A DNA stretch of 64,000 bases from Escherichia phage JLBYU43, in the sequence record NC_105512.1; one strand, 5' to 3'. The notes beneath the pieces were generated by a model that saw only the letters and a list, made by a program, of their open reading frames with translations, did no database searches and had not been told where the DNA came from. The position numbers and the translations under genes were made by a program. Below are positions 1 through 13,297 of this stretch, in pieces (position 1 is the stretch's first letter; each line of letters opens with the position of its first letter).

Positions 1-124
1 GTGCAGTGGGTTGGGGGAGAATACTTAGTCTGCTAACCGCCACCCCCGTTACTATTACCTTGCTAACTGTTTCATCCTGTAACCATTATTTAATTACAGG
101 ATGAAACTATTTTATTTTTAATTG

Positions 125-859
125 TTAGGCAACTTTTAATTTCTCAATATATTGTTGCGGGCTGCAACTATATTCTGCGCGTTCTTCTTCGGTCATACCT
201 TCCCAGCATAATTTTAAACGGTCAGCTAGGAATTGATAATCATTATCATCGTCGAGAGATTCATCAATAAAGGTTTCACCTATCAATGCCACGCCGATTG
301 ATAGAATATCGTTAATGGCTTGCGCGTCCAGCGTTTTAAATCCGTATGATGCCGCCGCTGATAATACGCCTTTATGATCATCAATCATCGTAAAATCAGC
401 GTTCGGATATAACTGTTTAAACAGTTCAAAGTAATAGCTTTTGTACACTGCATCTTTACTATGATATATATCGCTAACCTTATCAGCTTTAAAATATTTA
501 TGCAGTGTATCACGGGAAAATACGCGAATATTGCTTTTATCACGACCGCGTAAACCTTGTTTGCGCAGGAAGTAATAATCTGATTTGCTCATTAGTCGAG
601 CGGTACAAATAATGTTTAAAGTATTTGCGTCATTCATGCACTGGCGCATGTATTCAACTAATGGTAATAATGTATCTTGCATTATTAAATGATGTTTGCA
701 GGCTTCATTTTTATATTTATTTAAATCTAAATTGCCCTCATTATCAAAGCAAGGCGCTACACGATGGAAAGAATTAATGATAGTGCCGTCTAAATCCCAA
801 ATCATGACGCGGGAAATATGCGGGAAGCTGCGGGAAATAGTCATAATAGCTTTATTCAT
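125..859 (-). CDS. dmp: 5'-deoxyribonucleotidase Dmp (HAD-like)
   Basis: 244 aa; N-terminal HAD motif I (WDLDGTI); size and position match my recollection of T5 Dmp; GGAG RBS. Confidence 0.8.
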   Translation of the reverse strand: MNKAIMTISRSFPHISRVMIWDLDGTIINSFHRVAPCFDNEGNLDLNKYKNEACKHHLIMQDTLLPLVEYMRQCMNDANTLNIICTARLMSKSDYYFLRKQGLRGRDKSNIRVFSRDTLHKYFKADKVSDIYHSKDAVYKSYYFELFKQLYPNADFTMIDDHKGVLSAAASYGFKTLDAQAINDILSIGVALIGETFIDESLDDDNDYQFLADRLKLCWEGMTEEERAEYSCSPQQYIEKLKVA

Positions 860-938
860 TTGTTACGTTCTCCATTTAAGGGATTAGATTAATTCAGCAT
901 TACCCGCTATTTATAAGCGGGTAATAATAAATTAACTA

Positions 939-1331
939 TTAAAGACCAAAAGCAAGAGCATCGGCGATAAAACTAATATCCTCGCCGGATACACTGGAAC
1001 GAATGCCAGCGCAGGTGTATACCTTTGCACTGGTCAATTGATCATCAAGGCAGGCGAGGCAAGGCGCGACTACTGCAAAAGCTAAACCGGATTTTACGGC
1101 GTCGATGATAATCGTTTCTTGTTTCATCGTGTCAACATAAACACCTTTTGCTTTAATATGGCTTGTTAGTTTGCCTTGCATATATGCAAACGTTGTTACC
1201 TGTAGCGCCTCGTTAAAGTCTAGCAGTTCATCAATAATATGACCCGATTCAACGTGATAACGCTCGCCATTAGAATAAACCAGAACAATGGAAGATTGAG
1301 CGCGATCGAATGGAATATTTTGCTTTTTCAT
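939..1331 (-). CDS. hypothetical pre-early protein
   Basis: 130-aa ORF with the conserved TAATCCCTTAA-GGAG leader upstream. Confidence 0.55.
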   Translation of the reverse strand: MKKQNIPFDRAQSSIVLVYSNGERYHVESGHIIDELLDFNEALQVTTFAYMQGKLTSHIKAKGVYVDTMKQETIIIDAVKSGLAFAVVAPCLACLDDQLTSAKVYTCAGIRSSVSGEDISFIADALAFGL

Positions 1332-1368
1332 AGTTATAAAACTCCAGATTATTTAATAAGGGATTAAT

Positions 1369-1659
1369 TTATTTAATTTCAATACTAGCTGAATGGTTAG
1401 TTAATTCAACTGGTACATTAAATGATTCTTGTGAAAGGGTGTAACAATCAATAGTGATAAGAGAATCACAACCGATAATTATTACCCCATTATAGGCCAT
1501 TACTATAAAATCCCCTTTCCTGATTGGGTAATCGGGATAATCGTAACAATCAGAGCAAGCGCGGTAAACATGGTTATTTAAATATGCGTCACTGATTGGA
1601 ATATCAGATAATAAAAGGGATTTAGGCGAAAAGTCATTAATAGGTAGTACAATATTCAT
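1369..1659 (-). CDS. hypothetical pre-early protein
   Basis: 96-aa ORF in the leftward pre-early gene array. Confidence 0.5.
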   Translation of the reverse strand: MNIVLPINDFSPKSLLLSDIPISDAYLNNHVYRACSDCYDYPDYPIRKGDFIVMAYNGVIIIGCDSLITIDCYTLSQESFNVPVELTNHSASIEIK

Positions 1660-1716
1660 TTGATTAACCTTTTATTAATGGCGGTATATTTCAACCGCTA
1701 GGATGTTAATTAGTTA

Positions 1717-3387
1717 TTATGCAAAGAATTTTCCATTCTTAAAGTCAATCAAAGTACGTTGCCCGTTTGCATATGTAATTAAATGCGTTTGCGTCCAGCT
1801 TGACGCGCCAACGTTGTAACCCATATCCAGACTACCAGCAACGCCCGCGGTATATACGCCACCGTAAATGCTTGCCGTATGCGTATGCCCCGTGTTTAAC
1901 TTGCCCAATTTCTTAAATTGCTTAGGATTACCACGGCTGCCGTTAATGCCGTTGTGACCATGTACGCCGCATTCAATGCCTGCAATCTTGAAAGATTGAT
2001 CAGTGGTCAGGAAAATGGCGTTAAATTCACAACCTGCAACATTACGCAAGGCATAATCTAGCACGTTAAACGTTTCGTCGTGTTCACCGATTGCCGCGTA
2101 AATAGCCGCATTCAGGCGGTGATATATTTCCGCGTTTGCGGGATCGTCCTTAATGTTAGCATTACGATCATCAAGCCAACGGGATAGCGCCAAATCGTGA
2201 TTCGATTCGACAATGATCGTTTGACTAAAATCACGTTCCATCGATTCCAGCACGCGCCCCGTATCGATAAGATCATCCAGAACTTTATCACGTCCGGCGG
2301 CATACTGTTTTGCTAGGAATACACCGGATGCGCGGTTATGATGATTGCGGGATGTAAAATCATGCACGTCATGCACAAACTGATATTTTGGTTTAAGAAT
2401 ATCCACAAGCCCATAAGTATCACCATGCCCCCAAGATGCGGCGGCGCACTCTTCATCTAATTTTTCGGCGTGAATATCACCATACTGCAAGCCTAAAACA
2501 TGCCCCGATGTCTCATAGCATCCGGCAGGAGTAGCGCACACATTCAGATCATAAAATACCCCGCTTTCGTCCATCGTTTCGAGCTGGCGTACAAAAAATT
2601 CGCCGTCGTCGTCAAATTCTACCAGCAAAGCGCCGTAATTATGCAGCGCCTCAGCTTTTTGACCTGCTTTCTGCTGAATATAGTTTTTAAGTGTAGCCGT
2701 TCCGGTGGAGTACATACGGCGCACTACTTCACCTTTTAACGCTGGCACACTTTCAGCGGTAATTTTTGCGTGACCAATTGCCAGCCCTTCAATATTTAAA
2801 GCGGTGGCAGTTTCTGCGAATCCTGAAAGCGGGTAGTCTGCCGTTGGTAATACGTTAATTTCAGCCATGAAAGCAAAACGGCGATTGTTTAAAAATACAT
2901 TTTTCTCGCAGATATATTTATCAAATGCGGAGTCATATTTGATTTTTTCGCCGCCTTCCCCGTTCTGGAAGCCGTTTTTATTATAAATATACTTAGAAAC
3001 AAGCAAATCGGCACCGATATATTCAGCGAATTTTTCCAGACTTGCTAAAAAGTTTTTATGCGGGAAAGTATTATTCTGAATCGACGTAATAATAAAACGT
3101 TTACCCTGTTTTACTTCCCATTGCTCAACCGTACTAGAAACAATCCCAGCCGCTTCGGGGCGCTCGTCGTTTTTAATGGCTTTTGCTACTTTTGCCGCTT
3201 TCGGTTTAGCTGGTTTGTTTGCTTCCAGCCAATCACAAATGGCGGTAGAATGTTTCGTTGTATCGTAGACTGCTTTTGATATATCGTCGCAGACCTCCAG
3301 TTTAGTAGCGCGCAGACGTTTACCATAAAAATTAAAGTCAGCGGCCATTTTCAGGATAACGGTTTGTTTTTCTGCGGAAATAATCAT
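1717..3387 (-). CDS. A1: A1 protein, metallophosphoesterase-like
   Basis: 556 aa, the size I recall for T5 A1; calcineurin-like motifs GDIH and SNHD; conserved leader and GGAG RBS. Confidence 0.8.
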   Translation of the reverse strand: MIISAEKQTVILKMAADFNFYGKRLRATKLEVCDDISKAVYDTTKHSTAICDWLEANKPAKPKAAKVAKAIKNDERPEAAGIVSSTVEQWEVKQGKRFIITSIQNNTFPHKNFLASLEKFAEYIGADLLVSKYIYNKNGFQNGEGGEKIKYDSAFDKYICEKNVFLNNRRFAFMAEINVLPTADYPLSGFAETATALNIEGLAIGHAKITAESVPALKGEVVRRMYSTGTATLKNYIQQKAGQKAEALHNYGALLVEFDDDGEFFVRQLETMDESGVFYDLNVCATPAGCYETSGHVLGLQYGDIHAEKLDEECAAASWGHGDTYGLVDILKPKYQFVHDVHDFTSRNHHNRASGVFLAKQYAAGRDKVLDDLIDTGRVLESMERDFSQTIIVESNHDLALSRWLDDRNANIKDDPANAEIYHRLNAAIYAAIGEHDETFNVLDYALRNVAGCEFNAIFLTTDQSFKIAGIECGVHGHNGINGSRGNPKQFKKLGKLNTGHTHTASIYGGVYTAGVAGSLDMGYNVGASSWTQTHLITYANGQRTLIDFKNGKFFA

Positions 3388-3478
3388 AGTAATAAAACTC
3401 CATTAAAGGGATTAGATTAATAATGGCAATATTGCCAAATATAACGCCTCAAATAATAGGCGTTATAATTTGCAATAT

Positions 3479-3676
3479 TTAACTAATAGGCATCAGGCTA
3501 GAACTAACACCACAAACAACGGCGGCAATAAAACAAAGTAAGCCTAACCGCTTTGCTAACTTAGATTTGCGTTTAAAATAATACGAATCTAGATCATTTT
3601 GAAAATAAGTGAACAATAATGAGGCCGCCATAATAAACAAGCCTAGAATCAAAGATTCAGTAGGGAAGAAAATCAT
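3479..3676 (-). CDS. small membrane protein
   Basis: 65 aa, two hydrophobic helices, conserved pre-early leader. Confidence 0.45.
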   Translation of the reverse strand: MIFFPTESLILGLFIMAASLLFTYFQNDLDSYYFKRKSKLAKRLGLLCFIAAVVCGVSSSLMPIS

Positions 3677-3732
3677 TTTTAAAACTCCTGATTTAAGGGA
3701 AATTAGTGGGGAGTATTCCCCACTAATTAAAT

Positions 3733-4140
3733 TTATTCACCTGCGGCCTGTTTTACTTCATCGGCAACGCCTAACAATTGCGCCACGGCTTCCAGCGTTT
3801 CAAGTTTTGCACTTTCCAGCGATGCCAGATCATCGGCGTCTTTGATAATGCCGGAATCGATAGCATGTTTAGCGATAACGCGCACATAGTGAGCTTTACG
3901 CACAGAGCTACCGCCGCCAACTTTACGCGGCTTATCGCTTTTTTGATAGGCTTTTGCACTGGTCAATTTTGACCGAACGGATACGGGAGAAGCCGCGCCT
4001 ACTGCTTTTGCAATCTCTTTTAAACCGTCGCTATTTGCGAAATCTAAACCGTTTTCATTGATTAACTGCTGGTACATAGAAACAGCTTTCTGAGTGTTTT
4101 CTTCGTTCCATGCGAATTTTGCGGTTTTTGCGTTAGTCAT
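3733..4140 (-). CDS. A2: A2-like DNA-binding protein
   Basis: 135 aa directly upstream of A1 with an HTH-like segment; the A2 assignment rests on size and position. Confidence 0.6.
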   Translation of the reverse strand: MTNAKTAKFAWNEENTQKAVSMYQQLINENGLDFANSDGLKEIAKAVGAASPVSVRSKLTSAKAYQKSDKPRKVGGGSSVRKAHYVRVIAKHAIDSGIIKDADDLASLESAKLETLEAVAQLLGVADEVKQAAGE

Positions 4141-4240
4141 GGTAAAAACTCCTATTAGTTTAATTTAAGGGATTAAATGATTAACTAATGTTAATCGTTA
4201 TATGCCCCGAACTACTGGGGCATATAAAGTTAACACTAAA

Positions 4241-4492
4241 TTATAAAACAGCTTCCCACTTTTCGTTACGTTGAACAACCTTTACAACGTCGCCAGATTT
4301 AACGCGAACGTTATAAATTGGCTTGCCGTTGTTACTGCGTTCCGTTTCAGCGTATACCGCTTCGATTGTATCGAACGGCATAAGCGCCGCACCTTTAATA
4401 CGTTCGGCTTTTCCGGTTAATTCATCCATTTTAGTAACGAAAGGAATGAAGACGGATTGACCAACTTTCGGCGCGGTAATAACGTTTTGCAT
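4241..4492 (-). CDS. hypothetical pre-early protein
   Basis: 83-aa ORF with GGAG RBS; a 10-bp stem / GAAA loop hairpin lies upstream at ~4527-4552. Confidence 0.5.
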   Translation of the reverse strand: MQNVITAPKVGQSVFIPFVTKMDELTGKAERIKGAALMPFDTIEAVYAETERSNNGKPIYNVRVKSGDVVKVVQRNEKWEAVL

Positions 4493-4719
4493 AGTATAAA
4501 CTCCTAGTTATTTGGGGATTGTTCCGCATTACCTGCTAGAAAGTAGCAGGTAATAAGTAACAATCCGCTCGCCAATATAATAAAGTTAAAGAACTCCACG
4601 TAGGCCGCTATATCCCAGTTAGGGGGCGGGATGCATTATGGTAAGCACCGACCGTCAAATTGTATCAAGTTATCGCTCTTGTCGAACTGGGTATATCTTA
4701 AAGCCTATCGGCTAGGGTG

Positions 4720-4923
4720 TCAAACTGTTTTTTGCAGTTTTTTATGATTTTCTTTCAGGTCAATCATAATGTTTCGCCAGATCATTTCTAAACCTTGCTG
4801 GCGACCTTTCTTGTACTGCTTGAATCGGTATTTTACCGATCTTTGCGCTACGGTCAACAAATTTTTTGTTTTGCTATCTAGTGCCTTGCTAGGCTTGCCA
4901 GTGATCAATAAAGTTTGTTTCAT
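4720..4923 (-). CDS. small basic protein inside an inverted-repeat-flanked segment
   Basis: 67-aa Lys/Arg-rich ORF bracketed by perfect 25-bp inverted repeats (4688-4712 / 4956-4980). Confidence 0.3.
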   Translation of the reverse strand: MKQTLLITGKPSKALDSKTKNLLTVAQRSVKYRFKQYKKGRQQGLEMIWRNIMIDLKENHKKLQKTV

Positions 4924-5492
4924 ATCGTCGATTCCTTATAGTAGATAAGTTTACCGCCGATAGGCTTTAAGATATACCCAATTTTTAAAGAGCGCGGCGG
5001 TAAACTTCCCGCCGTGTAGTTCGTCATTGCCGCCCTACGAGATAAATAATAGGGGATTCCCGAAAATGGCGCAACCTTATTTTTGTAAAGAAACGTAAAG
5101 ACACGATTCACCGCACCACGTCCGGCGACGGCCTAAAATTAAAAGAAACGGGCGCGCAAATACCACAAAACATAGCAGATAAGCAAGTAATTTTTTCATT
5201 TATATTTGCTTTGCCCTAATTGACAAAATCCAAAAAGCTCATGGCAGCGATAAACGGCTTATCCCTTTATGATTGGATGGCTAAAAACTTTATTGCGTTC
5301 TGGAGCGTTTTCTCACTGCTGCCCTTATTATAATAAAGCCTTGTGTACGCTTACAGGACGCTAGAAATAGAAAACGCGCGGCTATCATAAAATTAGACGC
5401 TAGGCAAGGAAAATAAAAAAGTAAAATAATCTTTGCCCCTAGAAAGAAAATACCTTTATCATTCTTCTACCGATTAACGAGGAGGCCAACAA

Positions 5493-5819
5493 ATGCGGCT
5501 ATATAAACCAGATAACGCAACCGTCTTAAAAGGTGCACTGCGTAACCTGCTGGATGGTAGCAGAACAACCAGCATCCGGCATTTTGTTTTCAATTTTGAA
5601 ACTATTCATCAAAACTTTTTTGATGAATATGACGCTCATAATATGAATAGTTTTCTACCGTTATATAAACAAGGGGCAACGCTTGTTTTGTATAATCAGG
5701 ATTATCAATTGCTCACTAGTCGGGGGCCGGATACTGATTTCATAATCGTAAAAGGCAACACAGTAAAAGCCTATGATACTGGGGCGGGCTTAGAAGTTTT
5801 TTTCAATAGAAAACTATGA
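5493..5819 (+). CDS. hypothetical protein
   Basis: 108-aa ORF, strong GAGGAGG RBS. Confidence 0.55.
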   Translation: MRLYKPDNATVLKGALRNLLDGSRTTSIRHFVFNFETIHQNFFDEYDAHNMNSFLPLYKQGATLVLYNQDYQLLTSRGPDTDFIIVKGNTVKAYDTGAGLEVFFNRKL

Positions 5820-6129
5820 AGCCAATGATAATGATCTTTATGACGTAGAAAATTTTCTTGATTCATTTTGGCGTTATTTATCAGTTGGCTGGAATCGGTC
5901 GGATTATGACGGGTATTGTTTTGCGGCTATAATGGCCTTCGATGATAACGGTAATTTTTTGCTACCGTCGGAACTATGCCCGTATGTTTATAATGATCTG
6001 ATACAGGAGGCCGGTTTTACTTTCTGGAAAGATGAGGATCAGATTATTAACAGTATAGAAAAACATGCTGTAAATTCTAACACTCAAAGCGTTATCACTC
6101 AAACTACTGAAAATAAAGGAAAAAACACT

Positions 6130-6486
6130 ATGACCAAGATCGCTAACATCGTTGCCGCCAATAAGTCTGCCGTTGTAAACGCTGCAAAACTGGAAGCGGG
6201 TAAAATTGCACTAACTCAAATCACGAAAGTAGCGGCTAAAAAAGCACCGTTCATGATCAAAGGTTATATCGATACGCCGATTGGTCGCGTAGTAATCGCT
6301 AACCTGCTGAGTGTAGTGGTTGACCAGTACGCCCCTAACAACCAAAAAGCGAAAGCGGTAGCAGGCGCGGCTATGGAAGCGGCAATGCTGGAAATGGTAC
6401 AGAGTTTCAATATTGCTGAAATGATCGATGAAATGGTAAAAGGTATTGACATTTCAACCTTTACCCAAAATGCTGAAAGCGAGTAA
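6130..6486 (+). CDS. hypothetical protein
   Basis: in-frame ATG with an AAGGA RBS inside track ORF 5932-6486; start uncertain. Confidence 0.4.
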   Translation: MTKIANIVAANKSAVVNAAKLEAGKIALTQITKVAAKKAPFMIKGYIDTPIGRVVIANLLSVVVDQYAPNNQKAKAVAGAAMEAAMLEMVQSFNIAEMIDEMVKGIDISTFTQNAESE

Positions 6487-6605
6487 TAATTAGTCTAATG
6501 TAAAGTTTTGTAAAGGTCGCCTATTATGGCGGCCTTTTTTGTTATAATGCCTTTACACCGAAACGGTGGATTGAAAATTTTCCCTGATTTCTAGGAGGCG
6601 TTAAA

Positions 6606-6833
6606 ATGGTACATTCATCATCTTCTGCAATTTTTAATGGTATGGAATGGGTATCCGTTCCCGCTATTATCAGCGTTATGGTTTCTGAATTTGGGATTGG
6701 TAAAACTTATGTTACCATTCAGGAGCTTTACGACAATGACAAGATTGATCAGCAAACAGCCGGATTTTTGCTGGATGAATTGAAAGCTAACTACTGCACC
6801 AAAAAGCAAGCGGTAAAAATTGTTTTAATGTAA
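6606..6833 (+). CDS. hypothetical protein
   Basis: 75 aa, AGGAGG RBS. Confidence 0.5.
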   Translation: MVHSSSSAIFNGMEWVSVPAIISVMVSEFGIGKTYVTIQELYDNDKIDQQTAGFLLDELKANYCTKKQAVKIVLM

Positions 6834-6879
6834 TTATTAAAGGGGATAATATATCCCCTAATTTCTAGGAGCTAATGAA

Positions 6880-7062
6880 ATGGTTATTTTTCGATCTATT
6901 CTGGCTAGTATCTTGGGCGCTATTTTATCGCTGTTTGTAATAGCTTTCGGTATTCAGGATTCCTATTGCGGTTTGGTAAACACAAAACCTATGGTTATTA
7001 TTGGAGCAGGTATCGCTGTATTTTCTTATCTGCTGGGCTGCATGACTAGTAAAGGAGAATAA
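6880..7062 (+). CDS. small membrane protein
   Basis: 60 aa, hydrophobic, AGGAG RBS. Confidence 0.5.
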   Translation: MVIFRSILASILGAILSLFVIAFGIQDSYCGLVNTKPMVIIGAGIAVFSYLLGCMTSKGE

Positions 7063-7064
7063 AA

Positions 7065-7277
7065 ATGATCCGCAACGTTTCTCTTGCACGTTCGAAAGGC
7101 TTTAAGCTGGTGGATGCTAACACGTTCGAGCGGGAAGATTGTAAAATCGAATATGTAGCACGTAATAAAAATGCCTTTCGTGTTACCGAGAAAAAATTTG
7201 ATAAGCGCGGCAACGTGATCCTTGAAACGGTTAGGCACTTTGCCACCTTTTACGCTGCATTTCGTGGGGTACTATGA
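7065..7277 (+). CDS. hypothetical protein
   Basis: 70 aa, AAGGAGA RBS. Confidence 0.45.
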   Translation: MIRNVSLARSKGFKLVDANTFEREDCKIEYVARNKNAFRVTEKKFDKRGNVILETVRHFATFYAAFRGVL

Positions 7278-7400
7278 AAAGCGTTATTGTTGTTCTCCTT
7301 GCAATGGCTGGCGGTTTTATCGCCACCTTATTTAAGAATGATCCCACTTCGTTGGGGATCTTTATGTTATTATCTGGCTATCTGATCGGGAGGTTATAAA

Positions 7401-7745
7401 ATGGTTATTTATGAGGGCAATCGTTTTGTTGCTAACTGCCGCCCGGCATTGTTAGCAAACTATTTGAACCAGCTTTCGCCAGCTTATAAGGGCGTTATTA
7501 ATATTTATGAGGGCAAGGCGCATTATAAAATTAATGCGGTCGTTGCCCGTGAACTAGCGTTTCAATTTTTAACCTTTGCAGCTTGCGACGTTCAGGTTAT
7601 GGGTGAGGCATTAATCGCAGAAAATGAAGATGATTTTATTAATATTTTTCGCAAGATATGCACCGAGCGCCTGATAATGAAAGGCGCATATATTCAATCC
7701 ACGGCTGATAGTATTGAAACAGCGTTTCGAAAAATAGGTAAATAA
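7401..7745 (+). CDS. hypothetical protein
   Basis: 114 aa, GGGAGG RBS. Confidence 0.5.
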   Translation: MVIYEGNRFVANCRPALLANYLNQLSPAYKGVINIYEGKAHYKINAVVARELAFQFLTFAACDVQVMGEALIAENEDDFINIFRKICTERLIMKGAYIQSTADSIETAFRKIGK

Positions 7746-8018
7746 TATGGCTGTTTATATTGCTTTGCTAGGATATGCGCTATCCCTTATTGCTGGTATG
7801 GTTACTTATAACATGATCGGCAATATTGTGTTACCCCTTGTTGTCTGCACTATCTTAGGTCAGTTTTGCGGAATGTTCGTTATGTATAAATTAATGCAAG
7901 GAAAATAATACTAATGAAACTATATATTTTCGTTGGTAATGCTGAGGCAGCTAATGATTCCGCTGGTGGCGGTAACGTTCGCCACTATTGGCAAAAATAT
8001 ATTTACTAGGGCGTTATT

Positions 8019-8222
8019 ATGAGCAATAAAATTGTTGTAACCAAAACTACTACGATGGTAGACGTTTTCTACGTGCCCGATACGCCGGAAAACCGACAAG
8101 CGGTTGAGCGTGGGGAGTATGATAAAGTGATTTATGATCACGATGGTTATTATCAGTATTTAGTGGATTCATATGGGGAGGAGGAAAAAATCACGCATCG
8201 ACTACCAGAGGAGGATTTATGA
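8019..8222 (+). CDS. hypothetical acidic protein
   Basis: 67-aa ORF. Confidence 0.45.
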   Translation: MSNKIVVTKTTTMVDVFYVPDTPENRQAVERGEYDKVIYDHDGYYQYLVDSYGEEEKITHRLPEEDL

Positions 8223-8375
8223 AACGATGGTTTAATCACTGGTATAAACGGTTTTTAGTACGCCGTCGCAAGTCTAGATATCAAGATGAGTGGCGGGAGT
8301 GGGCAAAGCGTAACGATTGCCCACTACTATAATAATCACGGGGCGCAACTCTCAGGGAGTGCCCCCGTTTCTCAA

Positions 8376-8396
8376 ATGAGAATCATTCTCATTTGA
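8376..8396. repeat. palindrome AAATGAGAAT-C-ATTCTCATTT
   Basis: perfect 10-bp inverted arms with a 1-nt centre; first member of a repeat family recurring to ~8910. Confidence 0.7.
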
Positions 8397-8616
8397 CCGC
8401 GCCCGCGATGGTTAGCCTGCTAATGGTTAGGGTGTTACGTGTCGCCTTGTGTGATCGTTAGCGAGCTAACTAATTTTCAAGCCTCCTCCAATTTTGCCCT
8501 TGTTTTAGTATCCCCACCAAAATTAAACGCGTTAGAATGCGATCTAGGACGTTTTAGCGGTATATTAGAATTATTCACTGCGTAGGAATACTGTATATTT
8601 ATACAGTAGGATAAGC

Positions 8617-8625
8617 TGTGGATAA
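8617..8625 (-). promoter_or_regulatory. DnaA box (TTATCCACA on minus strand)
   Basis: exact 9-mer TGTGGATAA read on plus strand. Confidence 0.6.
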
Positions 8626-8689
8626 GTCTGTTAATAACGCCTCAAAATGGCTAGGGTTTTATCAAGTCAAATCGTGCTGTTAATAAACC

Positions 8690-8698
8690 TGTGGATAA
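8690..8698 (-). promoter_or_regulatory. DnaA box (TTATCCACA on minus strand)
   Basis: second exact TGTGGATAA, 73 bp from the first, same orientation. Confidence 0.6.
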
Positions 8699-8719
8699 CT
8701 TAAATAACAGTGTTTCTCA

Positions 8720-8910
8720 CTTCCATTCTTAAATGCGAATCATTATCATTATCATTTGTATTTCACTTCCTAAATGAGAATCATTCCACTTTTTAACTGA
8801 GAATCACTCCACTTTTTAAATGATTCTCATTTCACTTTCTAAATGCGAATTACTATCATTCTCATTCCGCTTTTTAAATGAGAATGATTCTTATTTTTAT
8901 TCTCATTTAG
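8720..8910. repeat. array of AAATG(A/C)GAAT(C/G)ATT partial palindromes
   Basis: about 6 degenerate copies at ~20-35 bp spacing, several self-complementary. Confidence 0.6.
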
Positions 8911-8932
8911 CGCAGGGCAAATTGCCCTGCGC
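8910..8932. repeat. perfect 23-bp palindrome GCGCAGGGCAA-A-TTGCCCTGCGC
   Basis: exact 11-bp inverted arms around one central base. Confidence 0.75.
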
Positions 8933-8936
8933 TTTT

Positions 8937-9672
8937 GTGCAAATCCGACATTGCTCCACGGGTGTTACGTGCGGGCGTGTATGTGCGAATCCGACAATTT
9001 TTGGTAGTGTGCAAATCCGACCCCAAAATTTTTTATAGTGTGCAAATCCGACAATGAATTTTCCCAAAAACTCCAGCAATCTCGAACTGCGTTCGAATCC
9101 TGTGGAATATGTGCAAATCCGACATGGTTTTTCTAGGATTAAGATGTGCGAATCCGACAAGATTTTTGTGACTTCGATGAGAAGGTGTGTGATTGTGTGA
9201 GTTTGGGGAGAAGTTGAGAGAGCGAGAGAAAATTAGGGGAACTGCGAGAGGGGCAGCAGTGGTGGCGTGCAACGCCTGATTTGCTGCGTTTTTGGGGAAG
9301 AGTTGAGAAGATTTGGGTTAATTTGAGATTAGGGGAGATAAAGTAAAATTTTATTAGCAAAATGGGGCAAAATAGCTTGACAAGTGAAAATTTCTGTGGC
9401 TCTAAAAAACTCAGGCAATCATGGGCCTTCGGCCCGAAATAATGCTGCCATTTTCAATATCCATAGAAACTCTGGAGACCCCTATCAATGTGCAAATCCG
9501 ACCATAAATTTCTAGAAACACAATGTGCAAATCCGATAGTAATTTCTGGAAATGTGTTTTGGAAAAATGCCTTCTAGAAATAACCGCCCTCCCTATAACC
9601 GCCCTGTATAGGAAAACCGGCCTAGGATATGTGACGTTGAGAGAAACTGCCCTAGAACATGTGCAAATCCGA
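8937..9672 (+). repeat. iteron-like direct repeats GTGC(A/G)AATCCGA, 9 copies
   Basis: copies at 8937, 8983, 9009, 9040, 9111, 9146, 9490, 9525 and 9661, all in the same orientation, mostly as TGTGCAAATCCGACA. Confidence 0.8.
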
Positions 9673-10126
9673 TTTAAAGTTTAGTATAAACGCTAGAGTT
9701 AGTGTTTAACTATTTAACTATTCCTAGAAACTTAGGAGTCTACTAGAAAGTGTTGAGCCATCCTAGCAGATGAGCGGCAACTGAGTGTATCATCTTGAAC
9801 GTTAATTTACCTATTTGACAATATCAGTTTTTATGTAAGTATAAGATCCCCAGGGTTCTCATATAGAGCTTTGCCCCCGCCAGAAGGTCTCGTGATGTTT
9901 CTAGTAATCTTTATTAAATTACCTGTTGACTTGTCCTGTCGCTCCGTAACCTACGCTACAAGTCAGTAATTTAAGATTCCTGAACCACCACACCTTCTGT
10001 GTGGCAACTCTAAATGGTTAATTCTATTAACTCATAGAGTTATGATAACATACATTTAGCTATCTGTCAACGAGAGTTTGTATTATTGTCTCGGTACAGG
10101 TATTGTGCACCGAGACTTGCAAGATC

Positions 10127-11008
10127 TTACAGTAACTCTTGGTATGCTTTTTGATACGCCTCAGTGTCAGTAGGTGTATCTTTTGCAATAGCTATTAATT
10201 CATCTGTGATCTGAATATTCGTGTTATAACGTGTGTGGAACTCGTTAGGAATTTCTAGGTATCTATTGATGAATGCTGCAGCAAGCGGTGAAGCTATACC
10301 CATTTCTAGAACCCATCCAACTTGTTTCTCAAACTTCAGATAAGGAGATTCTGTTTGAGTAGTAGAAGTTTTGGTTTCCTTGACTTCTTTAGTTGGTAGA
10401 ATTGGATTTTCATAACGTGCTTCTTCTGGAATAGCAGATCTACGTTCTTTATAAATATAAGTTTCTAGATCCGATGCTTTAGACCCTGAGTATACTGCAA
10501 AGACACTTGCTTTACCTTGTGATGCTCTAATTGGAAGATAACAATTTGGATAGCTTCTTAAGGCATCATGGAACGGGCTTCCAGAATATTGATAACGATC
10601 TCCATATAAATCATCAATATTCATTCGTTCATCTTCAAAGATGTGGAATGCACTAAATGAAGGTAGCGTAAAATATTCTGTCTCTAGCGCACGAATTAAG
10701 AAACGATGTGCATATGCACTAATCTTAATAACTGTGTAAGGTTTTTCTCCTTCTTTAAGAGCGTTACCCTTAGATGTAACTTGATAACGTTTCCCAAAGA
10801 ACTCTACTAAACGTTTCTCATTTAACGAGAGCGTAGAGTATAAACGTCCATTTAGTCCTAGCAAAGTATCAAACATAAATGCTAGCTTATCTTTTTCTTC
10901 TTTGGTTAATTCAGGGAATGGTAGGATCTTAGCATTTGGAATGTTATTTGTTTCCTTTGCCTTTCCTTTACCAGCATTTTGTCTTAGTTTATCTTTAAAG
11001 TTATACAT
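10127..11008 (-). CDS. hypothetical early protein
   Basis: 293-aa ORF. Confidence 0.55.
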   Translation of the reverse strand: MYNFKDKLRQNAGKGKAKETNNIPNAKILPFPELTKEEKDKLAFMFDTLLGLNGRLYSTLSLNEKRLVEFFGKRYQVTSKGNALKEGEKPYTVIKISAYAHRFLIRALETEYFTLPSFSAFHIFEDERMNIDDLYGDRYQYSGSPFHDALRSYPNCYLPIRASQGKASVFAVYSGSKASDLETYIYKERRSAIPEEARYENPILPTKEVKETKTSTTQTESPYLKFEKQVGWVLEMGIASPLAAAFINRYLEIPNEFHTRYNTNIQITDELIAIAKDTPTDTEAYQKAYQELL

Positions 11009-11085: not shown

Positions 11086-11436
11086 CTAGATATCACAGGC
11101 TTGATCACCTGTAAATTTTTTAACTGGTCTTTCTTTTAATGTTATGACTCTATCTATAGCGGGATCTAATTTAATCCATATTAGATTTAGTTGAGCAACA
11201 ATATGAGACATGTTTCTAGCTGTGAAAGGTATATCTTTTGGCAATCTAAATACTAGCTCTTTGAGATCATTCATTAAATGACCATCAGCAAAGAATAAAT
11301 ACGCTAGCCTTTCCACACGTTCATATTCATCCTCCTTAATTTCAAAGATCCCAATAGTTTCTTCGTTATTAAAAGACTTTTCATTGAGAAAAGCCACCTT
11401 GCAGTGGCCTATAGTAAATTCAGTAACTAGTTCCAT
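11086..11436 (-). CDS. hypothetical protein
   Basis: 116-aa ORF. Confidence 0.5.
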   Translation of the reverse strand: MELVTEFTIGHCKVAFLNEKSFNNEETIGIFEIKEDEYERVERLAYLFFADGHLMNDLKELVFRLPKDIPFTARNMSHIVAQLNLIWIKLDPAIDRVITLKERPVKKFTGDQACDI

Positions 11437-12047
11437 TAATTAAAACCCTTACTATTAGTCAGATCAACAAGAGCTTCCATAACTGCATCAGCAAAGCTCT
11501 CATTCCTGCTAGATGGTGTGCTCAGATGAATAGTATATGAGTTCCTAGAAACTCCAGCATCCGCTGGTGCTACGCTTCGCATATCAGATTCAAGAGCTTC
11601 TTGAGTATGTTTCAGTTGTACGGAAGGACTGCAATCTTCCCCAAACTTATATGACTGCGTACTACTTACCACACCCCCACAAGGAACATTGTGCATATCC
11701 GACATTAATCTTTTATCAGAATTAGTTAGTGCAGTAATATGCCAAGGGTCATTACGAGGAATAGTTGTAGTACTCGGGCGGTTCACTTCAGTCTTCACGA
11801 GTTTGTATCCTGCATCGATCAGTGCATTAATCAGATTATCCGCCGGGATGCGAGCTGTGCCAAAGATATTACGAGCATTCATGAGCTTAGCCTGAAACTC
11901 TTTGCAAGCCTGAAGATCAGTGTGCAAAAACGACAGTTGCATAGATTTAAACTGTACTGTAGCAGTCAGATCTTTAAAGCTATAATCCCATGTGTCGAGT
12001 TCGTGGTCTGGTACTACTTGAATAGATTGTTGTGTATTAAAAGTCAT
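11436..12047 (-). CDS. hypothetical protein
   Basis: 203-aa ORF, start overlaps the downstream gene. Confidence 0.55.
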   Translation of the reverse strand: MTFNTQQSIQVVPDHELDTWDYSFKDLTATVQFKSMQLSFLHTDLQACKEFQAKLMNARNIFGTARIPADNLINALIDAGYKLVKTEVNRPSTTTIPRNDPWHITALTNSDKRLMSDMHNVPCGGVVSSTQSYKFGEDCSPSVQLKHTQEALESDMRSVAPADAGVSRNSYTIHLSTPSSRNESFADAVMEALVDLTNSKGFN

Positions 12048-12232
12048 TATTTATTCTCCAGTTTGTCTAACAGTTTATGAGCTGCGATATTATATTGTTT
12101 AAGTTCACGATTAAGGATTTGGTTCTCACACTTTAGCTCTAGATTCTTGTTGTTAAGAATATTGCAGATTAGTAGAAGTGCTAGTATTAGTAACAGAGAA
12201 CCTACGAGCATTAAAAGAAAAAGAGTTTCCAT
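12047..12232 (-). CDS. small membrane protein
   Basis: 61 aa with an N-terminal hydrophobic helix. Confidence 0.4.
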   Translation of the reverse strand: METLFLLMLVGSLLLILALLLICNILNNKNLELKCENQILNRELKQYNIAAHKLLDKLENK

Positions 12233-12672
12233 TATTTTATCTCCATTCTTAACTTTGAAAACTTATTATACCAAACTATATGATTATCGTCAATTACAAA
12301 CTTATGATAACATGCTGGTACGGTATAAGTTCCATAATCCGTGACACGCTGCACAACCTTGTGTGCACACAGTCGACAACCATGCCCTTCTAAATGAGAT
12401 CTAGCAGTTTGCCAGTAATACCCTTCATGATCTGGACAGTAGATCTCGACTTGCTGTTGCATTGTTTTGTAATTTACACGCTCATACCCAAAGAAAGCTC
12501 CATGAACTGCAACAGCTTTCTTGATAAATATAAGGTTTAGTGCTTCTTGTTGAAAGTCGGGATGTAGCTGTTTAATCTTAGTTCTATTAATAGATCCATC
12601 CGATTTGATAAACCTATTTATTGGGAAGTTGTTAGCTTCCTCGATTAGTAATTCATTTATTTTATCACGCAT
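12232..12672 (-). CDS. Cys/His-rich hypothetical protein
   Basis: 146 aa with a CPDH...HGCRLCAH cluster. Confidence 0.5.
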   Translation of the reverse strand: MRDKINELLIEEANNFPINRFIKSDGSINRTKIKQLHPDFQQEALNLIFIKKAVAVHGAFFGYERVNYKTMQQQVEIYCPDHEGYYWQTARSHLEGHGCRLCAHKVVQRVTDYGTYTVPACYHKFVIDDNHIVWYNKFSKLRMEIK

Positions 12673-12673
12673 G

Positions 12674-12892
12674 TTACTTATTAAATAACTTATTTAGTTT
12701 ACAGTATAAGTCTTTTGCTTGTTCTTCGGATAGCCAAATAATATTGGGGGATGTTCCTCCACCTTTTTGAGCTAATCGTACTGTTTTATTTTTGCTTATT
12801 TCACAGGTTACAGCAGATTGATCTTCCGTAGGGCTATATCTAGCCTTTAGGTAGTTATCTAATGTTTTCATACTAAGTTCCTTGAAACACAA
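12674..12892 (-). CDS. hypothetical protein
   Basis: 72-aa ORF. Confidence 0.45.
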   Translation of the reverse strand: MCFKELSMKTLDNYLKARYSPTEDQSAVTCEISKNKTVRLAQKGGGTSPNIIWLSEEQAKDLYCKLNKLFNK

Positions 12893-12918
12893 AAGGCCAG
12901 AACAATTAAGTCCTGGCC
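12885..12918 (-). terminator. rho-independent terminator
   Basis: GGCCAG/CTGGCC stem followed by a U-tract on the minus strand. Confidence 0.5.
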
Positions 12919-12925
12919 TCTAGAA

Positions 12926-13297
12926 TTAATGAAGTTGTTTACCACTTCTTAAAATAGTGGCCGTTTCCATAAGATTTAGTGTTGTATCACGCTTTTTGAT
13001 TTGTTTGTCGAGTTCATCGGTACGTTTGCCAATGTAAGCGTTAATAGCCATATTCATAGCTGAGGCGAGATCTTCTTTGGTTATCTCTTCATCATCTAAA
13101 GCTAATTTAGCCAAAGAATCGAAAGTACTAGAAAGTCCTATAAGATCTGAGGTTTCACTAGCCAAAATAGGATTTATATTATCTATTGTTACTTCTAGCA
13201 TAGAGTTAACAATATCTTCTCCGTCTACCAGACCAGATTCAATATTACTCTCCCATTCCCTCATCTGCTCCAGCAATGGATTTTTCTTTTCTGTCAT
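12926..13297 (-). CDS. hypothetical acidic protein
   Basis: start moved to the internal ATG at 13297 with an AGGAAA RBS. Confidence 0.45.
   Translation of the reverse strand: MTEKKNPLLEQMREWESNIESGLVDGEDIVNSMLEVTIDNINPILASETSDLIGLSSTFDSLAKLALDDEEITKEDLASAMNMAINAYIGKRTDELDKQIKKRDTTLNLMETATILRSGKQLH

What the first reader, a model, noticed from the sequence alone, without database searches (positions are those of the whole stretch)
8340..9700. Dense repeat locus with DnaA boxes, palindromes and a 9-copy iteron array at the end of the pre-early region
Within ~1.4 kb of non-coding DNA there are two exact DnaA boxes (8617-8625, 8690-8698), a family of AAATGAGAAT-C-ATTCTCATTT-type palindromes (8376-8910), a perfect 23-bp palindrome (8910-8932) and nine same-orientation copies of GTGC(A/G)AATCCGA (8937-9672). 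This looks like a protein-binding control locus. By position it is a candidate for the T5 injection-stop region between first- and second-step DNA transfer; that is recalled from the literature and not verified here.
Basis: partly seen in the sequence, partly recalled or inferred. Interest (0 to 1): 0.7.

Follow-up and report, generated by a model that had tools for sequence, protein, structure and literature searches.

The report
T5-type injection-stop repeat region
This gene-free stretch is this phage's copy of the long-known repeat region at the end of phage T5's terminal repeat, where DNA injection pauses; I also found in it a near-perfect binding site for the host SOS repressor LexA that the papers I could read do not mention.

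Summary

The window is the left end of a T5-like phage (Demerecviridae). The locus lines up element by element with T5 "Repeat Region 3". T5's GenBank records already annotate it: palindromes C-J, IRD'/IRC', DRB, DRC, DRD copies 1-9, the major 7.9% nick, and "injection stop signal (iss)". The mechanism is still unsolved in the 2026 literature.

What I add:
- The terminal repeat ends at 9402, inside the large gap of the DRD array (six copies inside, three outside). Relatives from E. coli, Salmonella and Klebsiella phages show the same; Vibrio phage phi 3's annotated end lies among DRD-type repeats.
- The 25-bp palindrome carries T5's nick motif.
- "palD" (8589-8608) matches the LexA SOS-box consensus at 19 of 20 bases. 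It sits beside the DnaA-type box pairs, is conserved family-wide, and is absent from the literature I could read.
- This phage lacks the upstream inverted partner module.
- A Proteus phage has swapped the iteron motif but kept the host-factor boxes.

Best model: a composite boundary module, with low confidence on how the pause actually works.

The parts
8338..8368 (+). GC-rich hairpin just after the last rightward pre-early ORF (coding ends about 8333). It looks like a terminator closing the pre-early operon.
   Evidence: together with the next hairpin it folds at dG -19.3 kcal/mol, z -7.1. The strict terminator scan found none, because the T-run is short.
8372..8396 (.). Perfect 12+1+12 palindrome TCAAATGAGAAT-C-ATTCTCATTTGA, the first member of the AAATGAGAAT family.
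   Evidence: (I13).
8589..8608 (.). palD, TACTGTATATTTATACAGTA. A near-consensus LexA (SOS) box, orthologous to T5 palindrome D.
   Evidence: 19/20 match to TACTGTATATATATACAGTA, unique in the window, 0.03 expected at <=3 mismatches. Maps to T5 9330-9349. Conserved family-wide; the only variants change one arm, with no compensating change. One base from the validated tisB operator.
8617..8637 (+). DnaA-type box pair 1, TGTGGATAA-gtc-TGTTAATAA. Corresponds to T5 DRB copy 1 and the right part of IRD'.
   Evidence: Pairs separated by 3 bp, as described by Davison.
8678..8698 (+). DnaA-type box pair 2, TGTTAATAA-acc-TGTGGATAA. Corresponds to T5 DRB copy 2 and the left part of IRC'. It lies 61 bp from pair 1.
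   Evidence: The 61-bp spacing holds in every relative in which both pairs were detected.
8722..8908 (.). A+T-rich array of AAATGAGAAT-type direct and inverted repeats (T5 DRC1-4/DRE, palindromes E-I) with strong hairpin or cruciform potential.
   Evidence: (D1, D2, I1-I20); 8765-8912 folds at dG -22.6 kcal/mol, z -7.7.
8909..8933 (.). 25-bp perfect GC-rich palindrome (T5 palindrome J). Its right arm TTGCCCTGCGCT (8922-8933) is identical to T5 major nick site 1 (7.9%). The predicted nick is on the minus strand between 8932 and 8933. The palindrome is followed by TTTTG.
   Evidence: (I15). CCCTGCGC is identical to the T5 site; nick annotation; the four T5 major nicks share GCCC(T)GCGC.
8936..9159 (+). 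DRD copies 1-6 (T-GTGC[A/G]AATCCGA-Y-M, plus a T-rich tract 6-9 nt downstream), inside the terminal repeat. Start-to-start spacing 46, 26, 31, 71, 35.
9202..9327 (+). Purine-rich stretch with DRA-type repeats (TTTGGGGAGAAGTTGAGA at 9202-9219 and 9291-9308; ATTTGGGTTAATTTGAG at 9311-9327). It encloses a small hairpin, GGCGT-GCA-ACGCC, at 9264-9276.
   Evidence: D12; DRA2, DRA3; the hairpin is kept through two compensatory pair changes relative to 26 relatives.
9378..9402 (+). Conserved terminus motif TTGACAAGTGAAAATTTCTGTGGCT. The terminal repeat ends at 9402 (...CTGTGGCT|CTAAAAAAC).
   Evidence: T5 LTR end 10139 and Spc35 LTR end 9573 both map to 9402; six right-terminal-repeat contig ends stop at 9402/9403; the PhageTerm-determined end in KpGranit falls within 1 nt of the same motif.
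9423..9435 (.). Invariant GGGCC-TTC-GGCCC hairpin just outside the terminal repeat.
   Evidence: 100% conserved columns.
9489..9672 (+). DRD copies 7-9, outside the terminal repeat, in unique DNA.
11690..11703 (+). A tenth DRD-like copy, TGTGCATATCCGAC (1 mismatch), lying on the + strand within minus-strand early ORF 11436-12047. The copy is exact in T5 and many relatives at the homologous distance.

Best explanation
[quoted passage not shown] It is the conserved, gene-free boundary between the terminal repeat and the rest of the genome. The terminal repeat carries the first-step-transfer DNA with the pre-early genes dmp, A1 and A2.

**Anatomy (shown).** From left to right the locus contains:
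1. Two hairpins that close the rightward pre-early operon.
2. A host-factor module: one near-consensus LexA box followed by two pairs of DnaA-type boxes.
3. An A+T-rich field of AAATGAGAAT palindromes.
4. A 25-bp GC-rich palindrome carrying the T5 nick motif.
5. Nine co-oriented DRD iterons, split 6+3 around the terminal-repeat end at 9402 and its conserved terminus motif.

**Mechanism (inferred).**
- The pause needs no phage protein synthesis and does not occur with purified receptor in vitro. It is therefore most likely imposed by pre-existing host proteins.
- LexA and DnaA would load onto module 2 as it emerges into the cytoplasm. At that moment the hairpin-prone palindromes and the nicked palindrome (modules 3-4) sit in or near the envelope channel.
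- Together these would form a nucleoprotein and structural brake near 8% of the genome.
- A1/A2, made from the injected DNA, then release the brake.
- The DRD iterons are read by a phage-encoded protein, either A2/A1 for restart or the terminase for making the repeat end. A host factor is unlikely, because one lineage has swapped the iteron motif while keeping the host-factor boxes.

The two roles, injection boundary and terminus formation, need not be exclusive.
For: **Identity**
- 454 phage records match the locus.
- The window aligns collinearly with T5 and Spc35, with one-to-one feature mapping that includes all nine DRD copies and the nick motif.
- T5's GenBank records annotate these elements and label the region "iss". 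Davison's preprint describes them in detail.

**Protein-site character**
- The DRD copy number and spacing are conserved (46, 26, 31, 71|81, 35|25, ~343, 35, ~136). DRD5 is displaced by exactly 10 bp in some lineages while the DRD4-to-DRD6 distance stays at 106 bp.
- The DRD motif persists in Klebsiella, Pantoea and Vibrio phages whose spacers no longer align and whose A1 protein is only 34-73% identical.

**Host-factor module**
- The SOS box matches the consensus at 19/20 and is unique in the window.
- It keeps its CTGT-N8-ACAG core in every lineage. Variants change one arm only, with no compensation.
- It is one base from the tisB operator.
- The paired DnaA-type boxes occur twice against 0.00 expected, and a consensus TGTGGATAA sits next to the SOS-like box even in Vibrio phages.

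**Structural component**
- The palindromes fold with z-scores of -5 to -8.
- The nick motif is identical to T5 nick 1.
- In-vitro T5 ejection pauses correlate with nick positions.

**Phage-encoded iteron reader**
- Proteus phage 1 keeps the SOS-like and DnaA-like boxes, the nick motif and a terminus-like motif, but replaces the DRD array with a different 15/18-bp tandem repeat.

**Link to the terminus**
- The terminal-repeat end falls inside the large DRD gap in T5, Spc35, KpGranit and two divergent IMG/VR lineages; in Vibrio phi 3 the annotated end lies inside the tandem DRD-type array itself.
Against: - No experiment, even in T5, has located the stop site or shown that any protein binds here.
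- At each of the four DnaA-type positions the consensus and variant forms interchange between phages. The window-wide count of DnaA consensus sites is at chance level.
- The SOS box does not overlap any conserved promoter. The only nearby promoter-like site scores 9/12 and is absent from KpGranit, so it is not a classical operator.
- A protein bound to DNA that is already inside the cell does not obviously stop DNA that is being pushed in from the capsid.
- To my knowledge (unverified) T5 plates on recA strains. If so, restart cannot strictly depend on RecA-mediated LexA cleavage.
- This phage lacks the upstream inverted IRC-spacer-IRD partner. Any model that needs both modules cannot apply here.
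- The A2 helix-turn-helix does not covary with loss of DRD. The Vibrio A2 proteins diverge more than the Proteus one yet their phages keep DRD.
Confidence: 0.55

Rival explanations
1. **Packaging or terminus signal.** The DRD array and the conserved terminus motif are a cos/pac-like recognition site. Terminase uses it to cut concatemers at the right boundary of the terminal repeat. The left genome end is injected first and so was presumably packaged last, which would make the cut here the packaging-initiation cut. On this view the injection pause is a separate function of the left half of the locus, or is not sequence-specific at all.
For: - The terminal-repeat end maps to 9402, inside the large gap of the DRD array. 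This holds in the window, T5, Spc35, six right-terminal-repeat contig ends, KpGranit, and two divergent lineages with different spacing (6+3 and 5+5 copies). In Vibrio phi 3 the annotated end lies inside the tandem DRD-type array itself.
- The terminus motif TTGACA-N17/18-CTGTGGCT is conserved.
- The other repeat boundary in T5 has no DRD copies and only 41 bp of non-coding DNA, so the array is specific to this boundary.
- Replacement of the iteron motif in the Proteus phage fits a co-evolving phage protein such as a small terminase subunit.
Against: - Extra exact DRD copies lie far from any terminus: T5 copies 11-12 at 79 kb, and a tenth copy 1.7-2.1 kb downstream in most relatives.
- No small terminase subunit has been identified or compared here.
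- I found no T5 packaging-site literature.
- The packaging direction is inferred from the general last-in-first-out rule, not shown for T5.
Confidence: 0.3
2. **Purely structural jam.** The dense palindromes and the nicked 25-bp palindrome extrude hairpins or kink the DNA so that it jams in the portal, tail or channel. No sequence-specific protein is needed to stop transfer.
For: - The palindromes have strong hairpin potential, with z-scores of -5 to -8.
- The nick motif is identical to T5 major nick 1, at 7.9%, the same figure usually quoted for the first-step fragment.
- In-vitro ejection pauses correlate with nick positions.
Against: - palD varies by single-arm changes with no compensating change, which is a protein-site pattern rather than a hairpin pattern.
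- Ejection is complete in vitro with receptor alone, so the in-vivo stop needs a cellular component.
- The nine DRD copies are non-palindromic and are not explained by this model.
- To my knowledge nick-deficient T5 mutants are viable (not verified here).
Confidence: 0.15
3. **Transcriptional insulator.** The locus is a fail-safe barrier between the rightward pre-early operon and the convergent leftward early genes. Hairpin terminators and DNA-bound LexA and DnaA roadblocks keep host RNA polymerase from transcribing, and thereby pulling in, DNA beyond the repeat before A1 and A2 are made.
For: - Gene orientation is convergent on either side of the locus.
- Two hairpins follow the last pre-early ORF, and a hairpin followed by TTTT lies at 8909-8937.
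- The SOS box and DnaA-type boxes lack an associated conserved promoter.
- DnaA bound to its box is known to block RNA polymerase (established knowledge, not tested here).
Against: - The strict terminator scan found 0 sites.
- A 1.8-kb region with nine iterons conserved more tightly than neighbouring genes is far more than termination requires.
- This model does not explain why the array straddles the repeat end.
Confidence: 0.15
4. **Iteron-type replication origin.** DnaA boxes, an A+T-rich unwinding region and iterons bound by a phage initiator would form an origin, as in plasmids RK2, P1 or F.
For: The architecture resembles such origins: four co-oriented DnaA-type boxes, an A+T-rich repeat field and nine direct repeats. 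The reverse complement of DRD, ATTTGCACA, is itself an 8/9 match to the DnaA consensus, by inspection.
Against: - T5 origins were mapped by electron microscopy near the genome centre, and the replication genes lie in second-step DNA (Davison).
- The cumulative GC-skew minimum is near 51 kb, and the local extremum at the locus simply follows gene orientation.
- No initiator gene is adjacent, and Pfam finds nothing for the flanking ORFs.
- The iteron spacing is irregular (26-344 bp), and the conserved TCCGA extension lies outside a DnaA box.
Confidence: 0.07

Closest known systems
Bacteriophage T5 Repeat Region 3 / injection stop signal (AY587007 9194-10409; AY543070 'iss' 9140-10149; Heusterspreute 1987, Wang 2005, Davison 2020)
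   Same: - The order of elements is the same. From palD rightward every named feature maps one-to-one: palD, IRD'-51 nt-IRC' with box pairs 3 bp apart, DRC/DRE palindromes, palJ with the nick motif, DRD1-9 split 6+3 by the repeat end, DRA2-3, and the terminus motif.
- The genomic setting is the same, downstream of dmp-A1-A2 and the rightward pre-early genes.
   Different: - Only about 83% identical to T5 over the alignable part, and 92% to the best GenBank hit.
- No upstream IRC-spacer-IRD partner.
- The first box of pair 1 is a consensus TGTGGATAA here, whereas T5 has the degenerate GGGGATAA (TGGGGATAA) at that position.
- palJ is a perfect 25-bp palindrome, so the nick motif occurs on both strands.
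- DRD5 is shifted by 10 bp, giving spacing 71/35 rather than 81/25.
- There is a 6-bp insertion in DRC1.
- The 9264-9276 hairpin has two compensatory pair changes.
- T5's leftmost ~150 bp, including palC, is not homologous.
E. coli LexA operators (SOS boxes), e.g. the tisB operator TACTGTATAAATAAACAGTA
   Same: - 19/20 match to the 20-nt consensus, with a CTGT-N8-ACAG core.
- One base from tisB.
- Both orientations of the asymmetric centre occur among relatives, as expected for a site bound by a symmetric dimer.
   Different: - It does not overlap a conserved promoter.
- It lies in a virulent phage's non-coding boundary region, next to DnaA-type boxes.
- LexA binding has not been tested.
Iteron-plus-DnaA-box plasmid origins (RK2 oriV, P1 oriR, F oriS); comparison from my own knowledge
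   Same: Clustered co-oriented DnaA boxes, an A+T-rich segment and an array of direct repeats of 12-20 bp.
   Different: - Irregular spacing.
- No adjacent initiator gene.
- The array straddles a terminal-repeat end.
- T5 origins are mapped elsewhere.
Terminase recognition regions next to a cut site (lambda cosQ-cosN-cosB with its R sites; T7/T3 concatemer-junction repeats); comparison from my own knowledge
   Same: Multiple short repeated motifs flank a fixed genome terminus. Here the terminus lies inside the array in most lineages examined.
   Different: - The direct terminal repeat is long (9.4 kb) rather than cohesive ends.
- No terminase binding data exist.
- Extra DRD copies lie far from the terminus.

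Membership tests
T5-type Repeat Region 3 / iss | A gene-free region of at least 1 kb at the right end of the left terminal repeat, running past the repeat end into unique DNA | tested here: met
   Gene-free from 8334 to 10126. The repeat end lies at 9402.
T5-type Repeat Region 3 / iss | An IRD'-spacer-IRC' unit with DnaA-type boxes in pairs separated by 3 bp and a ~52-bp spacer | tested here: met
   IRD' maps to 8591-8631 and IRC' to 8683-8721, with 51 nt between them, the same as T5 by the same count. The pairs lie at 8617-8637 and 8678-8698.
T5-type Repeat Region 3 / iss | Nine DRD direct repeats in one orientation | tested here: met
   Nine exact copies, mapping to T5 DRD1-9.
T5-type Repeat Region 3 / iss | DRC/DRE repeats and palindromes E-J, including the major nick site | tested here: met
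   The nick motif CCCTGCGC is identical in sequence. Actual nicking cannot be tested here.
T5-type Repeat Region 3 / iss | An inverted partner, IRC-spacer-IRD, in an upstream repeat region (present in most T5-like phages) | tested here: not met
   A sensitive BLAST of 8560-8730, and of relatives' upstream copies, against the window found only the locus itself. Davison notes that some lineages lack the partner, so it does not define every member.
T5-type Repeat Region 3 / iss | DNA transfer actually pauses here until A1/A2 are made | not testable with these tools
   Shown experimentally only for T5 and BF23. In this window, A1 (1717-3387) and A2 (3733-4140) are present.
LexA operator (SOS box) | A CTGT-N8-ACAG core and closeness to the 20-nt consensus | tested here: met
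   19/20 match and unique in the window. Conserved across the family.
LexA operator (SOS box) | Overlaps or adjoins a promoter that it represses | tested here: inconclusive
   Only a 9/12 minus-strand promoter-like site at 8597-8570. Its -10 element is not conserved in KpGranit.
LexA operator (SOS box) | LexA binds it | not testable with these tools
   Needs EMSA, footprinting or ChIP.
Iteron-type replication origin | Iterons, DnaA boxes and an A+T-rich region | tested here: met
Iteron-type replication origin | A cognate initiator gene nearby, and origin activity or a skew signature | tested here: not met
   Pfam finds nothing for the flanking ORFs. GC skew follows gene orientation, with its minimum near 51 kb. 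T5 origins were mapped centrally.
cos/pac-type packaging signal | A fixed genome terminus generated within or next to the element | tested here: met
   The repeat end at 9402 lies within a conserved motif inside the DRD gap.
cos/pac-type packaging signal | The repeats are bound by the terminase small subunit and are required for cutting | not testable with these tools
   No T5 packaging-site literature found.

The most novel reading that the evidence does not exclude
palD is a genuine LexA operator, conserved across Demerecviridae from E. coli phages to Vibrio phages. Together with the adjacent DnaA boxes it would make pre-existing host LexA and DnaA the missing host component of the injection brake. 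Loss of LexA would then act as a licensing or timing signal for second-step transfer; one route to that loss is SOS induction when A1 degrades host DNA. The DRD iterons that bracket the repeat end would be read by a phage protein, serving both as the restart handle and as the terminase landmark.
Probability: 0.15. Interest if true: 0.8.

Novelty: already known. Interest (0 to 1): 0.4.

Why it matters
T5's two-step DNA injection has been known since the 1960s, yet the reason the DNA stops at about 8% is still unknown in 2026. This window adds no new kind of element. The comparative dissection does sharpen the question in three ways.

- It separates a host-factor module from a swappable iteron array. 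The module, an SOS box plus DnaA-type boxes, is invariant across phages of hosts that share LexA and DnaA specificity. The iterons are probably read by a phage protein.
- It ties the iteron array to the terminal-repeat end in most lineages examined (the Proteus phage has swapped it).
- It shows that the upstream partner module is dispensable in this phage.

Each point can be tested with existing host mutants (lexA, dnaA, fur) and with the T5 genome-engineering methods now available.

Tried and rejected
- **Rfam scan of 8000-10300.** Only two sub-threshold chance hits.
- **Sigma-70 promoter scan.** 6 sites against 6.5 expected, so no enrichment. The strict terminator scan found 0.
- **Small ORFs inside the locus.** Not maintained in relatives, so rejected as genes. 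Some GenBank records auto-annotate them as hypothetical proteins.
- **Upstream IRC-spacer-IRD partner.** Searched for sensitively and absent.
- **Fur-box reading of the AAATGAGAAT family.**
  - The best site matches 16/19 at 8735-8753. It is partly created by a 6-bp insertion specific to this phage, and by my hand count the orthologous T5 site matches only about 12/19.
  - The enrichment (6 against 0.06 expected) is confounded because the units are repeats of one another.
  - Left as an inconclusive aside.
- **A2 as the DRD reader, tested by covariation.**
  - The helix-turn-helix-like segment is conserved.
  - It does not track DRD loss in the Proteus phage.
  - A2 is neither supported nor excluded.
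- **DRD as a plain DnaA box.** The reverse complement ATTTGCACA matches 8/9, but the invariant TCCGA extension and the G variant argue for a longer, different motif.
- **CRP, IHF, Chi, KOPS and mar-box readings of DRD and the purine-rich region.** Rejected by eye for too many mismatches.
- **GC skew as origin evidence.** Confounded by gene orientation.
- **Pfam on A1, A2 and two flanking early ORFs.** No hits.
- **Literature access.** Davison's 2015 review could not be retrieved, and I did not look up the 1987 iss sequence paper. "Not previously reported" for the SOS box therefore refers only to the searchable library and the 2020 preprint.
Full report
**1. What the window is**

Genes dmp (125-859, minus strand), A1 (1717-3387, minus) and A2 (3733-4140, minus) sit at the same coordinates as in T5. 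The finding's 1.36 kb matches 454 phage records by megablast. Almost all are Salmonella, Escherichia and Klebsiella T5-like phages. The best match is 92.3% (Salmonella phage FGS029); the rest are mostly 80-90%. The A1 protein is 98% identical to that of phage phiAPCEc03. The window is therefore the left 64 kb of a T5-like phage (Demerecviridae), starting at the genome's left end.

**2. Checking the observation**

- **DRD 12-mer.**
  - GTGCRAATCCGA occurs nine times exactly, always on the + strand, and only between 8937 and 9672.
  - At <=1 mismatch, 0.22 matches are expected in 64 kb (D3).
- **DnaA boxes.**
  - The two TTATCCACA boxes are present at 8617 and 8690.
  - The relaxed DnaA consensus is at chance level in the window overall (8 against 7.5 expected).
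  - Their significance lies in the arrangement. Each is half of a pair, TGT[G/T][G/A]ATAA-3 bp-TGT[G/T][G/A]ATAA, at 8617-8637 and 8678-8698. That is 2 against 0.00 expected.
- **AAATGAGAAT family.** It holds all six exact copies and 12 of the 22 copies with <=1 mismatch in the window.
- **GC-rich palindrome.** It is 25 bp long (8909-8933), not 23.
- **Hairpin potential.** The palindromes fold strongly, with z-scores of -5 to -8.
- **Coding potential.** Eight of the nine small ORFs inside are intact in at most 3 of the 8 aligned sequences (window plus seven relatives); the ninth, a 40-aa ORF at 8935-9057, is intact in 6 of 8.
- **Routine scans.** There is no Rfam match and no excess of promoter-like sites.

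**3. Identity**

The T5 record AY587007 annotates, in this order:
- palindromes C and D, and IRD';
- DRB copies 1-2, and IRC';
- DRC copies 1-4, and palindromes E-J;
- "major single-stranded nick 1, 7.9%";
- DRD copies 1-6;
- DRA copies 2-3;
- the end of the left terminal repeat (10139);
- DRD copies 7-9.

Record AY543070 labels 9140-10149 "injection stop signal (iss)". An alignment of the window with T5 and Spc35 is collinear, and every feature from palD rightward maps one-to-one; palC falls in T5's non-homologous left ~150 bp:

| T5 feature | Window position |
|---|---|
| palD | 8589-8608 |
| DRB1 / DRB2 | 8616-8638 / 8677-8699 |
| nick motif CCCTGCGC (identical) | 8925-8932 |
| DRD1-9 | the nine copies listed above |

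Davison's 2020 preprint calls this "Repeat Region 3" and describes the same parts:
- box pairs separated by 3 bp;
- a constant ~52-bp spacer;
- two DRE repeats;
- nine DRD repeats;
- an overrun past the repeat end.

The finding is thus a rediscovery of a described element in another family member.

**4. What the comparison adds**

*(a) The terminal-repeat end.*
- The T5 end (10139) and the Spc35 end (9573) both map to window 9402.
- Six IMG/VR contigs that end in a right terminal repeat stop exactly there.
- In Klebsiella phage KpGranit the PhageTerm-determined end falls within 1 nt of the same conserved motif, TTGACA-N17/18-CTGTGGCT|C.
- Six DRD copies therefore lie inside the repeat and three outside.
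- The split holds in two divergent lineages whose DRD spacing is entirely different (6+3 and 5+5 copies). In Vibrio phage phi 3 the annotated end lies inside the tandem DRD-type array itself.
- The other repeat boundary in T5 has no DRD copies and almost no non-coding DNA.

*(b) DRD geometry.*
- Spacing is conserved at 46, 26, 31, 71|81, 35|25, ~343, 35, ~136.
- DRD5 is displaced by exactly 10 bp in some lineages while the DRD4-to-DRD6 distance stays at 106 bp.
- The unit is T-GTGC[A/G]AATCCGA-Y-M plus a T-rich tract downstream.
- Extra co-oriented copies exist in three places:
  - a tenth copy 1.7-2.1 kb downstream, lying on the + strand within a minus-strand early gene;
  - in this window, that copy is at 11690 with one mismatch;
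  - T5 copies 11-12 at 79 kb.

*(c) The nick.*
- T5's four annotated major nick sites share GCCC(T)GCGC.
- The right arm of the window's palindrome is identical to nick 1.
- Because the palindrome is perfect here, the motif is present on both strands.

*(d) An SOS box.*
- palD, TACTGTATATTTATACAGTA, matches the LexA consensus at 19 of 20 positions. It is unique in the window, with 0.03 expected even at <=3 mismatches.
- It is the exact reverse complement of T5's palD. T5's palD differs by one base from the validated tisB operator.
- The CTGT-N8-ACAG core is kept in T5, Klebsiella, Pantoea, Proteus and two Vibrio lineages, and in the duplicated upstream copies.
- Variants change only one arm (ACAG to CCAG, ATAC to GTAC), with no compensating change. 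Both orientations of the central AAA/TTT occur. This is the signature of a dimer-binding site rather than a hairpin.
- A DnaA-type box pair follows within 40 bp in every lineage examined, with a consensus TGTGGATAA inside that distance in most (window, KpGranit, both Vibrio phages).
- Neither Davison's preprint nor the searchable literature mentions LexA here. I could not retrieve Davison's 2015 review and did not look up the 1987 iss sequence paper.

*(e) A missing partner.* This phage lacks the upstream inverted IRC-spacer-IRD module that most relatives carry.

*(f) An iteron swap.* Proteus phage 1 keeps:
- the SOS-like box and the DnaA-like pairs;
- AATGATAATCA-type repeats;
- CCCTGCGC followed by one degenerate DRD;
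- a terminus-like motif.

Its iteron array, however, is a different 15/18-bp tandem repeat.

*(g) A small hairpin.* The hairpin at 9264-9276 is preserved through two compensatory pair changes relative to 26 relatives.

**5. How it most likely works**

Three things are shown:
- the identity of the locus;
- its modular anatomy;
- family-wide constraint at the level of short motifs, while the spacers between them diverge.

The rest is inferred.

- The pause needs no phage protein synthesis and is absent with purified receptor in vitro. A pre-existing cellular component is therefore implied.
- The only motifs here whose readers are abundant, pre-existing host proteins with the same specificity in Escherichia, Klebsiella, Proteus and Vibrio are the SOS box and the DnaA-type boxes. 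Their invariance, set against the swappable iterons, fits a host reader for the former and a phage reader for the latter.
- The A+T-rich palindromes and the nicked GC palindrome lie just to the right. In-vitro ejection pauses correlate with nicks.
- I therefore favour a composite brake: host nucleoprotein complex plus structure-prone DNA at the channel. A1/A2 would release it, and the DRD array would serve restart and/or terminus formation.

Geometry does not discriminate between the models. With a shear point at 7.9-8.3% and roughly 0.5-0.7 kb of DNA inside the tail (my estimate; BF23 tail up to 250 nm), the layout in the stalled complex would be:

| Module | Inferred position |
|---|---|
| SOS/DnaA module | just inside the cell |
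| Palindromes and DRD1-6 | in the envelope and tail |
| Repeat end and DRD7-9 | near the portal |

**6. Rivals**

- **Packaging-signal reading of the DRD array.** This is the strongest rival. It is not exclusive with the injection role.
- **Purely structural jam.** Weakened by the non-compensatory variation in palD and by complete ejection in vitro.
- **Transcriptional insulator.** Plausible for the left part of the locus, but it does not explain the iterons.
- **Replication origin.** Disfavoured by the central mapping of T5 origins, by the skew profile, and by the lack of an adjacent initiator gene.

**7. Verdict**

The element is already known. Interest is moderate. It rests on the conserved SOS box, which I could not find reported, and on the link between the iteron array and the terminus. 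Together these make a long-standing open question more directly testable.

Noticed in passing
window 8589-8608: T5 'palindrome D' is a 19/20 match to the LexA SOS-box consensus and lies one base from the tisB operator. It is conserved, next to DnaA-type boxes, across Demerecviridae including Vibrio and Proteus phages. The T5 literature I could search does not mention it.
   Followed up: yes
window 8909-8933: The T5 nick motif TTGCCCTGCGCT occurs on both strands here because the palindrome is perfect; in T5 the left arm is imperfect. If the nickase read the motif alone, both strands would be cut 24 nt apart.
   Followed up: partly
window 21955-21961: The only other + strand CCTGCGC in the window. 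It lies at roughly the position of T5 major nick 2 (18.3%, TCCCCCTGCGCTCTCC).
   Followed up: partly
window 11690-11703; T5 AY587007 79019-79048 (L128 1020-1049): Extra co-oriented DRD copies lie outside the locus. A tenth copy lies on the + strand within minus-strand early ORF 11436-12047 (1 mismatch here, exact in T5 and many relatives). T5 annotates copies 11-12 inside exo2, 370 bp from major nick 4.
   Followed up: partly
window 4500-5490 (searched over 1-8300): This phage lacks the inverted IRC-spacer-IRD module (a second SOS-like box plus four DnaA-type boxes) that most T5-like relatives carry 1.5-3.4 kb upstream. Its gene content otherwise looks like Davison's 'Type 1'.
   Followed up: yes
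window 8729-8757, 8372-8390, 8845-8898: The AAATGAGAAT / GAATCATTATCATTATC repeats resemble the Fur-box consensus, with the best site at 16/19 (8735-8753). That is intriguing because T5's receptor FhuA is Fur-regulated. However, the resemblance is weaker in T5 and the enrichment statistic is confounded by the repeat family.
   Followed up: partly
window 9110-9159 versus T5 9856-9895: DRD5 is shifted by exactly 10 bp (one helical turn) between lineages, through reciprocal 10-bp indels. The DRD4-to-DRD6 distance stays at 106 bp.
   Followed up: yes
window 9264-9276: A small hairpin, GGCGT-GCA-ACGCC, replaces the GGTGC-GGA-GCACC found in 26 related loci. Two base pairs have changed in a compensatory way, which suggests a selected stem-loop between DRD6 and the repeat end.
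   Followed up: partly
window 10070-10042 (minus strand) and 10036-9690: The only strong sigma-70-like promoter near the locus (TTGACA-17-TATCAT with TG, 11/12) points leftward into the gene-free region. The 347-nt RNA it would make folds better than shuffles (z -3.8). It could be a non-coding transcript.
   Followed up: partly
L129 (Proteus phage 1), reverse-complement coordinates 11680-13110: This phage keeps the SOS-like box, DnaA-like pairs, nick motif and terminus-like motif. Its DRD array is replaced by about nine tandem 15/18-bp repeats (AATAGAATGGTGGGG type), an iteron swap within the family.
   Followed up: partly
L125 (Vibrio phage phi 3) 7363-7490 and 7608-7800: The Vibrio relative carries five perfect 30-bp tandem repeats in place of the AAATGAGAAT field. 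It also has a 17-bp tandem array of GGTGCAAAACCGATATA, with a 107-bp duplication, at the annotated repeat end.
   Followed up: no
window 4674-4712 / 4956-4994: A 39-nt inverted repeat (87% complementary) in the divergent pre-early promoter region, corresponding to T5 inverted repeats A/A' (Repeat Region 1).
   Followed up: no
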